Of a stretch of DNA of 64,000 nucleotides, positions 6,001 through 9,000 are shown piece by piece. A program made the position numbers. This stretch comes from Escherichia coli (GTDB lineage Bacteria; Pseudomonadota; Gammaproteobacteria; Enterobacterales; Enterobacteriaceae), in NCBI RefSeq assembly GCF_044324875.1, contig NZ_CP172185.1, one strand, 5' to 3'. Within the stretch, counting starts at the first letter, position 1. Each line of letters starts with the position of its first letter.

Positions 6001-9000
6001 GCTGCAACATTGATGGAGAGCGGGAACAGCGCACGGCCTGACATATACATCTCTTCACCAGGCAGTGCGCCTTTATTGTTGATGGTGCCGAGAGTGTTAG
6101 TCAGTTTTACGCCAAAGCCGAGTGATTTTTCTTTTGCCAGTGCCATCAGACGTTCCAGCATTTCCAGTGCTTGCGTCAGCTTGAGGTCGTGATCAAATGA
6201 CTCTTCTTTTAAGCCTATGTAACCGAAACCGCAGACATTGAGGATCTCACGAACACGCGCGTACCCCAGTAAGGTCGGGTTGAGTTTCACAAAGGTATTG
6301 AGCCCTTTTTCTTCCAGCATGTAGCGGCAAATGGCTTCGATTTCATGCGGAGGACAGCCGTGCATCGTGGAGAGGGTAACGCCTTGTACCATGCTGGTGG
6401 GGATGCGTGCCGGTAAGGCCTGCAAGCATTCGCGTTTTTCCTGTAAGCCGTGGCGGGCTAAAAATGCGTCATCCTGGAGTAGTTTATTAAGCGTATCGCG
6501 GTACTGTGCGAATTTCGGATGGTCAGACGCGTCCATCATATTATCGATGAACTGCTGCATGGGCGGCTGTTTAATCCCTTCAAGGTTATAACCGACGCTC
6601 ATATTAAAGATAAATGACTTACCGGATCCTGATGGCTGGAACATCGCTTCCAACAGATGCAGGGCAAACCAGGCTTTGAGGTATTCATCCCAGGCTTTAA
6701 GCAGGGTAAATTCGGTGGACCATTCGGTGTTAAAGCACTCGTCTTCGGCATCAATACAGGGCTTTTCCAGCTCCAGGCGGTCAAGAATTTGGACGGTTTT
6801 TAGTTCGATGAAGCGTCCGCCAGTTAGCCAGGAAGTGACAATATTTTGCGCGAGCTGCGTGTGCGGGCCAGCGGCAGGGCCGACGGGAGTGGCACAGGTT
6901 TCACCGAAGACACTAACAGTTTTACCTTTTACGGGTGAGTAAAACTGTTGCTCGGGAATACCAAAGATTGAGCGTTGTTGTTGGTATTCATCAAATATGC
7001 GCGTCAAAAGTTCCTCAAACGGAATGGGACGCATAATATCCCCCATAACCCTCTCCTTAGCTTATACAGATATCATTGAGTGACCGGTGTTGAGAAATCC
7101 GGTGGTTTAGGGGTATAGAGCAACAATCGCACCACTCTTGCCAGGTTTGGCGGGAAATATAAAAAAATGTGAGGCGGCTCGAAACTTAGGAGCTTTTTGT
7201 GAATGAACTCACAGGTGCCAAATGAGAATTAAAATCACTCCTGAAAATTATTATTGCCAGCCCATTTATCACTTTTTCTCTTTTCTCAAAATCAGTGATT
7301 CCTTATCATTATGATAAAGAGTGCTGGAGGGATTAAATATTTGAACGCAATCGTTTAACTACATTTTCTAAATTTTAGTATACCTTTTTTGCGCTGTAAT
7401 AAAGTCGTCCGGAGTATCAATATCTAAAATTATTTCTGCATTTTCTATTTCGACGGAATAATGATCTCCCATAAGGAGTGCCTGACGCATATTGGTGATA
7501 TTGGGACGCTGGATTGCCTGCATCAGGCATGGCTTTGACACTAAAATCGGATGGCCGGGAATGCCATTATGGAGTGGCAGTATTGCGCCATCATTTCGTA
7601 ACGACCAGATTTTTCTAAAAATATCGATGGTGAGGGTAGGCATGTCACCGTGGGTGAGAAAACAATATTCTGTTTTTACCGCGGGTACTGCGGCCTTTAC
7701 TGATGTGAGTAAACCCTGCGCATAATCTGGGTTGTGAATAATAGTGATATTGCTCTGGTTCGCATAACGTTCGTGCAGTTCATTACCACGATAGCCGGTG
7801 ACTAAAATAATTCGGCTACAAAACTGCAACGCATTTTTGATACTTGTATCAAGAATTGTTCCCTGTTGCCAGGGTAACATCATTTTCCATTGCCCCATTC
7901 TTGATGATAATCCGGCAGCGGTAATTATACAGTCGATGGCTGACATAGTGGTTCCATTATTTATAGGGGCTAATAACGCCTGATAATTGCGTTACTTCCT
8001 GATGGATTAAGTTGGGGATAATTTATCCCAGAGAGGTCATAAAGACTCGTGAAAAGTATAGTTGACCCATCGGCATTATTCATTGATTTAGGCGCGCAGA
8101 AACGTCCCACTGTGATTTCTGTTGTTGGGGCTGGGGGGAAAACCAGCTTGCTTTTTTGGCTGGCAGAACTGCTCCAGGCTAGCGGCAGGCGTGTGTTAAT
8201 CACTACGACGACACATATGTTTATGCCAACGTCTCACTGGCCCGTGGTTTTCTGTCGTGATCCCGCCATGCTTCCTCATGCGTCTCTTACATCCCCCATT
8301 TCATTTTGTTTTCACAGCTGGAAAGCGAACCAGGGAAAGGTGCAGGGATTTACGCCAGAAGCGATTGATGCACTGGTGCAACGACCAGAGTGTGACGTAA
8401 TTCTCATTGAGGCAGATGGCTCGCGTGGAATGCCGTTAAAAGCGCCTGATGAGCACGAACCTTGCATACCTAAAAGCAGTTGCTGCGTGATTGCTGTGAT
8501 GGGAGGACATATTTTGGGTGCAAAAGTGAGCACAGAAAATGTCCATCGCTGGTCGCAGTTTGCTGATATTACTGGGTTAACACCTGATGCACCCTTGCAA
8601 CTGAGCGATCTCGTTGCGCTGGTTCGCCACCCTCAGGGCGCGTTTAAAAACGTACCGCAAGGTTGTCGGCGAGTCTGGTTCATTAACCGTTTTTCTCAAT
8701 GTGAGAATGCGATTGCGCAAAGCGAGCTCCTTCAACCGCTGCAACAACACAACGTAGAGGCAATCTGGCTGGGCGATATACAAGAACATCCTGCAATCGC
8801 GCGCAGATTTGTGAATTAGCGGCCCGGGTATTCCGGGTTACTGAAAGGATATCCATTGAGGTTGGTATGAATATTTTCACAGAGGCTGCAAAACTCGAAG
8901 AGCAAAATTGTCCGTTTGCGATGGCGCAAATTGTAGATAGCCGAGGCTCTACTCCCCGCCATTCTGCACAAATGTTAGTGCGCGCCGATGGTTCTATCGT

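What the first reader, a model, noticed from the sequence alone, without database searches (positions are those of the whole stretch)
7047..7367. Candidate sigma-54 promoter upstream of ygfK, next to a locus encoding the sigma-54 activator YgeV
The minus-strand sequence CTGGCAAGAGTGGTGCGA at 7128..7144 fits the -24 TGGCA / -12 GC architecture with correct GG-N10-GC spacing. YgeV at 17.1 kb is a bEBP with an intact GAFTGA motif. This suggests YgeV could drive the ygfK-ssnA-ygfM-xdhD operon. I looked for a comparable motif upstream of ygeW and did not find a convincing one.
Basis: partly seen in the sequence, partly recalled or inferred. Interest (0 to 1): 0.45.

Follow-up and report, generated by a model that had tools for sequence, protein, structure and literature searches.

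The report
Known sigma-54 promoter of ygfK, misregistered

Summary
The quoted string exists (CTGGCAAGAGTGGTGCGA, 7144..7127, minus strand) and has GG-N10-GC spacing. As a sigma-54 site it is no better than chance: 9.3 bits, with 31 such sites in the window against 30.8 in shuffles.

The real site overlaps it 9 nt downstream: GTGGTGCGATTGTTGCT, 7135..7119, 14.5 bits. This is the motif of sigma-54 ChIP-seq peak OS31 (Bonocora 2015), which EcoCyc already listed as a predicted promoter.

Upstream of ygfK in 80 species, 76 keep this register, with TGG and TTGC invariant.

The YgeV idea is plausible but also published: a "YgeV iModulon" includes ygfK-ssnA-ygfM-xdhD.

My addition is a palindrome, TTATCATAATGATAA (7317..7303), at a helically phased ~-202 in 72 of 76 loci. 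It recurs upstream of the ygeW and xdhA promoters and matches the enhancer predicted for the clostridial activator DioR. It is therefore the likely YgeV binding site. A conserved CRP box lies at -97.5.

Verdict: real feature, already known, wrong register, with a modest new regulatory detail.

The parts
7119..7135 (-). Sigma-54 promoter of ygfK in the supported register: GTGGTGCGATTGTTGCT. The -24 GG is at 7133-7132 and the -12 GC at 7121-7120.
   Evidence: 14.52 bits, rank 5 in the window. P=0.002 in shuffled intergenic sequence. The string is identical to the motif of ChIP-seq peak OS31. K-12 is identical here. The register is kept upstream of ygfK in 76 of 80 species, with TGG and TTGC invariant.
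7128..7144 (-). It overlaps the real site and is a chance-level match.
   Evidence: 9.30 bits, rank 31. 31 such sites observed against 30.75 expected. GG and GC are both kept in only 3 of 76 orthologous loci, all Escherichia or its closest relative.
7108..7108 (-). Predicted transcription start, 12 nt downstream of C7120 and 62 nt upstream of the ygfK ATG.
   Evidence: Inference using Bonocora's convention (start = motif centre + 19). It reproduces the published distance of 62 nt. No experimental start site was found.
7303..7317 (.). Candidate enhancer (UAS) palindrome TTATCATAATGATAA, centred about -202 from the predicted start.
   Evidence: Invariant TnTCA-N3-TGATA in alignment A1. Present at -150..-290 in 72 of 76 loci against about 1% per locus by chance, with distances in helical phase. 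Nearly identical to the predicted DioR site ATTTATCATAATGATAAGG of C. botulinum.
7281..7292 (-). Conserved box ATTTTGAGAAAA, which contains a TGAGA half-site.
   Evidence: Conserved in alignment A1. No factor assigned.
7218..7241 (-). Conserved box GGAGTGATTTTAATTCTCATTTGG (about -122), with TGAT and TCTCA half-sites.
   Evidence: Strongly conserved in A1. Its PWM has no other hit in the window. No factor assigned.
7198..7213 (.). CRP-type box TGTGAGTTCATTCACA, centred at -97.5.
   Evidence: Perfect TGTGA-N6-TCACA core. It sits at exactly -97.5 or -98.5 in most of the Enterobacterales loci (absent in Klebsiella oxytoca/grimontii, Raoultella, Morganella and some Enterobacter, Kluyvera and Cedecea) and is absent in Aeromonas and Vibrio. 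ygfK is listed as a CRP genomic-SELEX target (PMC3105977). The pathway is glucose-repressed.
7158..7189 (-). Conserved block CTAAGTTTCGAG..CCTCACATTTTTTTATA, lying between the CRP box and the promoter.
   Evidence: Conserved in A1. It is in the position an IHF site would occupy, but nothing in 7110..7330 matches WATCAANNNNTTR with one mismatch or fewer. Unassigned.
7083..7103 (-). Stem-loop ACCGG-N11-CCGGU at +6..+26 of the predicted mRNA.
   Evidence: Folds at -5.8 kcal/mol. A stem-loop in the same place, with different stem sequences, recurs in most genera. No Rfam match.
3948..7046 (-). ygfK coding sequence, first gene of ygfK-ssnA-ygfM-xdhD. The Shine-Dalgarno AAGGAGAG is at 7058..7051.
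   Evidence: ORF list. RefSeq annotation of identical loci. Intergenic gaps of 2 and 50 nt, with xdhD running off the window start.
16756..16772 (-). Sigma-54 site of ygeW, CTGGCATAGTTATTGTT.
   Evidence: 13.51 bits, rank 7. ChIP peak OS30. RpoN genomic-SELEX peak in the ygeV/ygeW spacer. The TTGTT -12 element is kept in distant orthologues L081 and L082.
16946..17081 (.). Three TCA-N3-TGA palindromes upstream of the ygeW promoter, starting at 16946, 16975 and 17073.
   Evidence: The 16970..16988 site is the best independent hit in the whole window for a PWM built only from ygfK orthologues (19.2 bits).
22677..22693 (-). Sigma-54 site of xdhA, CTGGCGTAAATCTTGCC.
   Evidence: 15.74 bits, rank 1 in the window. 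ChIP peak OS29, experimentally confirmed according to EcoCyc.
22793..22822 (.). Two TCA-N3-TGA palindromes upstream of the xdhA promoter, starting at 22793 and 22814.
17141..18919 (+). ygeV, encoding the sigma-54 activator (bEBP): N-terminal region, PAS, AAA+ with GAFTGA, and a Fis-type HTH.
   Evidence: Pfam scan. GAFTGA at residues 347-352.

Best explanation
The intergenic region between mocA and ygfK carries the sigma-54 promoter of the ygfK-ssnA-ygfM-xdhD operon. This operon encodes the first steps of reductive uric-acid degradation.

RNA polymerase with sigma-54 binds GTGGTGCGATTGTTGCT (7135..7119, minus strand) as a closed complex. Transcription should start near 7108. Opening the complex needs an AAA+ activator. 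The most likely one is YgeV, encoded in the same cluster.

I infer that YgeV binds the palindrome TTATCATAATGATAA about 202 bp upstream of the start, on a fixed face of the helix, and reaches the polymerase by DNA looping. A CRP site at -97.5, roughly midway, probably adds the glucose repression seen for the pathway and may supply the bend.

How firm each step is:
- Shown by others: sigma-54 occupancy in vivo.
- Shown here: which register is real, and its conservation together with the palindrome.
- Inferred: YgeV binding, the start site, and the role of CRP.

The confidence of 0.8 refers to the promoter and its register. I put YgeV acting through the palindrome at about 0.65.
For: Register. 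Shuffle P is 0.002 against 0.045. The string is identical to the motif of ChIP-seq peak OS31, fold-above-threshold 26. K-12 is identical across both registers.

Conservation. 76 of 80 ygfK loci, from Escherichia to Aeromonas, Vibrio and Shewanella, have a site of at least 12 bits upstream of the ATG (55-125 nt in most, 57-161 in all); about 2 would be expected. TGG and TTGC are invariant. The site stays with ygfK whatever gene lies upstream.

Enhancer. The palindrome is present in 72 of 76 loci at helically phased distances, R=0.85. The core TCA-N3-TGA occurs 6 times in the 967 nt upstream of the three sigma-54 promoters of the window, against 0.3-0.5 expected.

Link to YgeV. YgeV orthologues at 53%, 51% and 44% identity lie in the same gene cluster; in the two clusters where several promoters could be examined (53% and 51%), palindromes lie 100-200 nt upstream of the ygeW and xdh sigma-54 promoters and, in the 51% cluster, of ygfK; the 44% locus shows only the ygfK promoter with one palindrome, and in the 53% cluster the ygfK promoter itself has none. 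The enhancer predicted for the clostridial activator DioR is the same motif and lies in front of the same genes. A YgeV homologue at 40% identity in a 29%-GC genome shows the same layout. A published YgeV iModulon contains the operon.

CRP. ygfK is a CRP genomic-SELEX target, and the pathway is glucose-repressed.
Against: - I found no experimental transcription start for ygfK.
- I could read no direct test of rpoN or ygeV dependence of ygfK. [quoted passage not shown]
- The main text of the in vitro RpoN genomic-SELEX study does not mention ygfK, although it lists the ygeV/ygeW spacer.
- Bonocora et al. deliberately say 'binding site', not 'promoter'.
- Three loci with a sigma-54 site lack the palindrome (L048, L049, L065), as does the equivalent spacer of L081.
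- No terminator follows mocA, so read-through into ygfK is possible.
- The phasing statistic ignores shared ancestry.
- The conservation columns come from sites picked with the PWM itself.
Confidence: 0.8

Rival explanations
1. One reading: -24 TGGCA at 7143-7139, -12 GC at 7130-7129, transcription starting near 7117.
For: It has the better -24 pentamer (TGGCA) and correct GG-N10-GC spacing. It is present in K-12 as well. ChIP-seq resolution cannot separate sites 9 nt apart.
Against: 9.3 bits is below 95% of verified sites and at the chance level. Its -12 element GTGCG departs from TTGCW. MEME chose the other register for the ChIP peak. The ChIP peak centre lies downstream of both registers, so it is nearer the published one. 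GG and GC are both kept in only 3 of 76 other species, while the downstream register is kept in all 76.
Confidence: 0.04
2. In Escherichia both overlapping registers can bind the sigma-54 polymerase. The lineage-specific upstream TGGCA would add occupancy or a second start.
For: The ChIP signal (fold-above-threshold 26) is high for a site with PSSM score 10.06 in Bonocora's table. The upstream TGGCA is fixed in K-12 and in this strain.
Against: The two sites overlap, so binding would be mutually exclusive. The upstream one is weak and not conserved. ChIP signal depends on many things besides motif score.
Confidence: 0.08
3. The site binds the sigma-54 polymerase but is not the working promoter. 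ygfK would be transcribed by read-through from mocA or from a sigma-70 promoter.
For: Bonocora et al. stress that many sigma-54 sites may be non-productive. No terminator follows mocA, and a weak sigma-70-like match (9 of 12) lies at 7400..7372 on the ygfK strand.
Against: The position upstream of the ATG is conserved in 76 of 80 species regardless of the upstream gene. A phased enhancer accompanies it. The same promoter-plus-enhancer arrangement precedes the pathway genes in Clostridia. ygfK is co-expressed with the other sigma-54-preceded operons in the YgeV iModulon. A microarray study cited by Bonocora lists ygfK as sigma-54-responsive.
Confidence: 0.06
4. The promoter is real, but the activator is not YgeV, or the palindrome binds some other factor.
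For: No YgeV-DNA binding data exist. E. coli has about a dozen such activators. The TGT-N10-ACA shape of the -97.5 box also resembles NifA/FhlA-type enhancers. The palindrome has some resemblance to a Fur box.
Against: The palindrome travels with YgeV/DioR-family genes in gamma-proteobacteria and Firmicutes. Its central 3 nt vary freely, unlike a Fur box. The -97.5 box is missing in many taxa that keep the promoter.
Confidence: 0.12

Closest known systems
Sigma-54 ChIP-seq site OS31 upstream of ygfK (Bonocora et al. 2015, PLoS Genet, PMC4591121); flagged there as a promoter already predicted in EcoCyc
   Same: It is the same DNA. The motif GTGGTGCGATTGTTGCT is identical, on the same strand, and gives the same 62-nt distance from predicted start to ATG.
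   Different: Nothing differs for the promoter itself.
DioR regulon of Clostridiales (Nie et al. 2019, BMC Genomics, PMC6615313). A predicted sigma-54 activator controlling dpaL(ygeX), ygeW-ygfK-ssnA-ygeY, yqeB, xdh and pbuX.
   Same: The same pathway genes. Sigma-54 promoters. Enhancer palindromes TTATCA-N3-TGATAA, with a TTCTCA/TGAGAA variant, 70-250 bp upstream of the promoter. An activator with the same domain layout as YgeV and 35-41% identity over its full length.
   Different: A different phylum. E. coli has a single palindrome at -202 plus a CRP box. The ygfK promoter's -24 element is the unusual TGGTGC. The DioR sites are computational predictions, and orthology with YgeV is inferred from architecture, context and motif, not from a tree.
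YgeV iModulon (Lamoureux et al. 2023, NAR, PMC10602906)
   Same: It proposes YgeV as activator of xdhABC, ygeWXY-hyuA, ygfK-ssnA-ygfM-xdhD, ygfT and uacT.
   Different: It rests on co-expression only. It cites sigma-54 promoters for xdhABC and ygeWXY, and gives neither a binding site nor the ygfK promoter.
Classical enhancer-dependent sigma-54 promoters with a bending protein between enhancer and promoter (glnAp2/NtrC, nifH/NifA with IHF, Pu/XylR with IHF). Recalled from textbook knowledge.
   Same: -24/-12 elements. An upstream palindrome on a fixed helical face. A conserved protein site roughly midway.
   Different: The enhancer lies further away than usual (-202 against about -100 to -150). 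The midway site is a CRP box, not an IHF site; no IHF consensus was found.

Membership tests
Sigma-54 (-24/-12) promoter | GG and GC dinucleotides separated by 10 nt | tested here: met
   Met by both registers: 7133-32/7121-20 and 7142-41/7130-29. On its own this feature does not discriminate.
Sigma-54 (-24/-12) promoter | Overall similarity to experimentally bound sites, above chance | tested here: met
7135..7119 scores 14.5 bits, the median of 135 ChIP sites, with P=0.002 in shuffles.
Sigma-54 (-24/-12) promoter | Occupancy by the sigma-54 polymerase in vivo | not testable with these tools
   Published: ChIP-seq peak OS31, fold-above-threshold 26 (PMC4591121).
Sigma-54 (-24/-12) promoter | Position and orientation conserved upstream of the orthologous gene | tested here: met
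   76 of 80 loci, 57-161 nt from the ATG (55-125 in most), independent of the upstream gene.
Sigma-54 (-24/-12) promoter | rpoN-dependent transcription starting about 12 nt downstream of the GC | not testable with these tools
   No start-site data found. A microarray study cited by Bonocora lists ygfK as sigma-54-responsive.
YgeV/DioR regulon | TTATCA-N3-TGATAA-type palindrome(s) upstream of the sigma-54 promoter | tested here: met
   7317..7303. 72 of 76 orthologous loci. Also upstream of ygeW and xdhA. Matches the published DioR sites.
YgeV/DioR regulon | Cognate activator gene in the same gene cluster | tested here: met
   ygeV lies 10 kb away in the window. Orthologues at 44-53% identity are in the same cluster in L081-L084, and one lies directly upstream of ygfK in L077.
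YgeV/DioR regulon | YgeV binds the palindrome and is required for expression | not testable with these tools
   Only co-expression (the iModulon) and a cited ygfT effect in a ygeV mutant.
CRP-regulated promoter | TGTGA-N6-TCACA site | tested here: met
   7213..7198 is a perfect core, conserved at -97.5/-98.5 in most of the Enterobacterales loci.
CRP-regulated promoter | CRP binding and a cAMP/glucose effect on expression | not testable with these tools
   ygfK is in the CRP genomic-SELEX target list. Uric-acid degradation is glucose-repressed. No ygfK-specific test was found.
IHF-assisted sigma-54 promoter | WATCAANNNNTTR core between enhancer and promoter | tested here: not met
   No match with one mismatch or fewer in 7110..7330. 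The conserved block 7158..7189 remains unassigned.

The most novel reading that the evidence does not exclude
YgeV is the gamma-proteobacterial counterpart of clostridial DioR. It binds one TTATCA-N3-TGATAA palindrome at a helically phased -202. CRP, bound midway at -97.5, acts as the bending co-activator in place of IHF and so puts a sigma-54 promoter under catabolite control. The whole module (activator, enhancer, sigma-54 promoter and uric-acid genes) has been kept, or transferred, across bacterial phyla.
Probability: 0.3. Interest if true: 0.5.

Novelty: already known. Interest (0 to 1): 0.27.

Why it matters
The operon encodes XdhD-YgfM, YgfK and SsnA. These catalyse the opening steps of the recently described reductive uric-acid pathway of gut bacteria, which is being engineered into probiotic E. 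coli to treat hyperuricaemia.

Knowing the correct promoter register, the likely YgeV binding site and the CRP box matters for three reasons. It tells experimenters exactly which bases to mutate. It offers an explanation for the glucose repression. It also suggests that overexpressing or de-repressing YgeV could switch on all the operons at once.

For the scan itself, the lesson is that GG-N10-GC spacing alone is not evidence. The true site here has an unusual -24 element (TGGTGC), and the eye prefers the neighbouring TGGCA.

Tried and rejected
- Rfam scan of 6800..7500 at E<=1 found nothing, so the 5'-UTR hairpin is not a known riboswitch or leader.
- IHF consensus search found nothing with one mismatch or fewer.
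- PWMs for the conserved boxes B3, B4 and B5 have no second hit in the window, so they are specific to ygfK and not shared regulon elements.
- A B1-like palindrome at 51223..51241 lies between yqeI- and yqeH-like regulator genes in an AT-rich island. I judged it probably a chance match.
- I considered a Fur-box reading of the palindrome and rejected it, because the central 3 nt vary freely among species.
- The search for homologous proteins with YgeV returned only near-identical E. coli sequences. I switched to the search over 50%-identity representatives.
- Iwadate and Kato 2019 could not be retrieved by DOI or by a guessed PMC id.
- The Reg-Seq preprint includes ygfK in its gene list, but its main text says nothing about ygfK's regulation and never mentions sigma-54 or rpoN.
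- No intrinsic terminator was found after mocA.
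Full report
**What the window is.** The region is the E. coli purine and uric-acid locus in reverse orientation. ygfK is at 3948..7046 (-) and mocA at 7368..7946 (-). ygeW is at 15474..16664 (-), ygeV at 17141..18919 (+) and xdhA at 20324..22621 (-). The 801 bases around the finding match 5171 of 5426 complete E. coli genomes at 95% identity or more, annotated as mocA and ygfK with nothing between them. K-12 MG1655 is identical across the whole promoter.

**The observation.** The quoted string CTGGCAAGAGTGGTGCGA is present on the minus strand at 7144..7127, with GG-N10-GC spacing. YgeV is a sigma-54 activator with an intact GAFTGA at residues 347-352. I built a weight matrix from 131 of the 135 ChIP-verified sigma-54 sites of Bonocora et al. 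2015, leaving out the four sites of this locus. That is rank 31 in the window and below the 5th percentile of true sites. The window holds 31 sites at that score or better, and dinucleotide shuffles give 30.75.

**What is really there.** A second -24/-12 pair overlaps the first, 9 nt downstream: GTGGTGCGATTGTTGCT at 7135..7119. It scores 14.52 bits, ranks 5th in the window and sits at the median of true sites. A shuffled copy of this intergenic region reaches that score with P=0.002. This 17-mer is letter for letter the motif of sigma-54 ChIP-seq peak OS31 upstream of ygfK. That peak has a fold-above-threshold score of 26 and is flagged as a promoter already predicted in EcoCyc. The same paper notes that an earlier microarray study had listed ygfK as sigma-54-responsive (PMC4591121). 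With the paper's convention the start is at 7108, 62 nt from the ATG, which is exactly the distance in their table.

**Phylogenetic test of the two registers.** I fetched ygfK loci from 80 species, from Escherichia to Aeromonas, Vibrio, Photobacterium and Shewanella.
- 76 have a site of at least 12 bits within 400 nt upstream of ygfK. About 2 would be expected from the shuffle rate.
- The site lies 55-125 nt from the ATG in most of them (57-161 overall).
- TGG and TTGC are invariant in all 76.
- In the same loci, the register 9 nt upstream keeps both GG and GC in only 3. These are Escherichia and its nearest relative.
- The site stays with ygfK whether the upstream gene is mocA, a divergent yqeB or yqeC, xdhC, or a ygeV-like gene.

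A caveat applies: the sites were picked with the matrix itself, so the column conservation is somewhat inflated. The count, the invariance and the position are still far beyond what that selection could produce.

ygeW does have a sigma-54 site, CTGGCATAGTTATTGTT at 16772..16756 (13.5 bits). It corresponds to ChIP peak OS30 and to an RpoN genomic-SELEX peak in the ygeV/ygeW spacer. Its -12 dinucleotide is GT, which is probably why it was missed. That TTGTT is kept in distant orthologous clusters. xdhA has the best-scoring site in the window, at 22693..22677 (15.7 bits; peak OS29).

**Is YgeV the activator?** Co-expression evidence is published. A YgeV iModulon includes xdhABC, ygeWXY-hyuA, ygfK-ssnA-ygfM-xdhD, ygfT and uacT, and a ygeV mutant is cited as having lowered ygfT expression.

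I looked for a shared enhancer. An alignment of 21 Enterobacterales spacers shows a modular control region:
- the palindrome TTATCATAATGATAA at 7317..7303;
- two further boxes, at 7292..7281 and 7241..7218;
- a perfect TGTGA-N6-TCACA box at 7213..7198;
- a conserved block at 7189..7158;
- the promoter;
- a 5'-terminal hairpin.

A matrix built only from the ygfK palindromes finds its best independent hit of the whole window in the ygeW-ygeV spacer. The invariant core TCA-N3-TGA occurs 6 times in the 967 nt upstream of the three sigma-54 promoters, against 0.3-0.5 expected; none of 5000 shuffles reached 6. Across species, the palindrome lies at -150..-290 in 72 of 76 loci, against about 1% per locus by chance. 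The distances are -202/-203, -181/-182, -214, -224, -194 and -173. These cluster in helical phase, with R=0.85 over all loci and R=0.73 (p about 3e-4) over the 15 distinct distances, not corrected for shared ancestry.

**Independent support for the YgeV link.** YgeV orthologues at 53%, 51% and 44% identity lie in the same cluster. In the 53% and 51% clusters the ygeW and xdh sigma-54 promoters have palindromes 100-200 nt upstream, as does ygfK in the 51% cluster; the 53% cluster's ygfK spacer has none, and the 44% locus shows only the ygfK promoter, with one palindrome about 270 nt upstream of the predicted start. The supplement of Nie et al. 2019 lists predicted enhancer sites for the clostridial activator DioR in front of ygeW-ygfK-ssnA-ygeY, dpaL, yqeB and xdh. 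Examples are ATTTATCATAATGATAAGG and ATTTATCAAAGTGATAAGT, with TTCTCA/TGAGAA variants in C. difficile. The E. coli ygfK site reads CTTTATCATAATGATAAGG. A YgeV homologue at 40% identity in a 29%-GC genome has the same palindromes in front of ygeX-ygeY-amidohydrolase genes. I therefore take YgeV and DioR to be one family using one enhancer motif. I put the probability that YgeV binds 7303..7317 and activates ygfK at about 0.65. This is inference; nothing I could read shows YgeV binding DNA.

**CRP.** The box at 7213..7198 is a perfect CRP core. It sits at exactly -97.5 or -98.5 in most of the Enterobacterales loci and is absent in Klebsiella oxytoca/grimontii, Raoultella, Morganella, some Enterobacter, Kluyvera and Cedecea, and in Aeromonas and Vibrio. 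ygfK, ygeV<>ygeW and ygfT<>ygfU are all in the CRP genomic-SELEX target list. Uric-acid degradation by this pathway is glucose-repressed, and a native Crp site in the ygeV-ygeW spacer is mentioned in the 2025 pathway preprint. No IHF consensus was found. A bending role for CRP midway between enhancer and promoter is a reasonable but untested idea.

**What argues for caution.**
- There is no mapped start site for ygfK.
- I could read no direct rpoN or ygeV test on ygfK.
- The RpoN genomic-SELEX paper does not mention ygfK in its main text.
- Three loci with a sigma-54 site lack the palindrome.
- No terminator follows mocA.

**Verdict.** The promoter and the YgeV hypothesis are already in the literature, the stated -24/-12 register is wrong by 9 nt, and the remark about ygeW is wrong. 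The new part is modest. It consists of the register test by conservation, the phased palindrome that ties E. coli YgeV to the clostridial DioR motif, and the conserved CRP box at a sigma-54 promoter.

Noticed in passing
window 7198..7213: A perfect CRP core, TGTGAGTTCATTCACA, at -97.5 from the predicted sigma-54 start. It is at the same position in most of the Enterobacterales loci and absent in Aeromonas and Vibrio. A weaker one, TGTGATCAACCCCACA, lies upstream of ygeW at 16830..16815 (-77.5). The shape also fits TGT-N10-ACA, the NifA/FhlA type of enhancer.
   Followed up: partly
window 7083..7103 (minus strand): A stem-loop at +6..+26 of the predicted ygfK mRNA (ACCGG-N11-CCGGU). A hairpin in the same place with quite different stem sequences recurs in Trabulsiella, Edwardsiella, Hafnia, Aeromonas, Morganella and Photobacterium. 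No Rfam match. It may stabilise the mRNA or act as a regulatory leader.
   Followed up: partly
window 8450..8466 (+), inside yqeC: Intragenic sigma-54 site TGAGCACGAACCTTGCA (Bonocora's IS34), pointing at yqeB. The 13-nt core GCAYGARCCTTGCA is kept 373-423 nt upstream of yqeB in about 50 of 53 loci, despite only 55-99% YqeB protein identity. In several genera it scores 13-15 bits. C. difficile is also reported to have a SigL promoter directly upstream of yqeB (PMC11448449). Coding constraint was not separated from promoter constraint.
   Followed up: partly
window 16756..16772 (minus strand); L081 7726..7710; L082 7884..7868: The ygeW sigma-54 site has TTGTT instead of TTGCW at -12. This non-canonical GT is kept in clusters whose YgeV is only 51-53% identical. 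This strain's site (CTGGCATAGTTATTGTT) differs at two positions from K-12's (CTGGCACACTTATTGTT).
   Followed up: partly
L081 529..742; L082 650..842: In the lineage where ygfK is divergent from a short yqeB/xdhC-like gene, the spacer of about 300 bp carries two back-to-back divergent sigma-54 sites. In L081 there is no palindrome between them. In L082 there are two.
   Followed up: no
window 61977..61993 (+), 50415..50431 (+), 15764..15748 (-), 61315..61331 (+): Other high-scoring sigma-54-like matches (15.4, 15.2, 15.0 and 13.7 bits). One lies inside ygeW. The shuffles predict about 1.7 sites at 14.5 bits or more, so some of these are probably chance. I did not check them against ChIP data.
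   Followed up: no
window 51223..51241: A good copy of the TTATCATAATGAT palindrome (18.6 bits with the ygfK-derived matrix), between yqeI-like and yqeH-like regulator genes in an AT-rich island. No sigma-54 site was noted beside it. Probably chance.
   Followed up: partly
window 17141..18919 (ygeV): YgeV has no receiver domain. It consists of an N-terminal region of about 160 residues with no Pfam match, then PAS, AAA+ and HTH_8. The label 'orphan response regulator' used in the IsrR paper (PMC9426417) therefore does not fit its architecture. Full-length homologues at 35-53% identity are numerous.
   Followed up: partly
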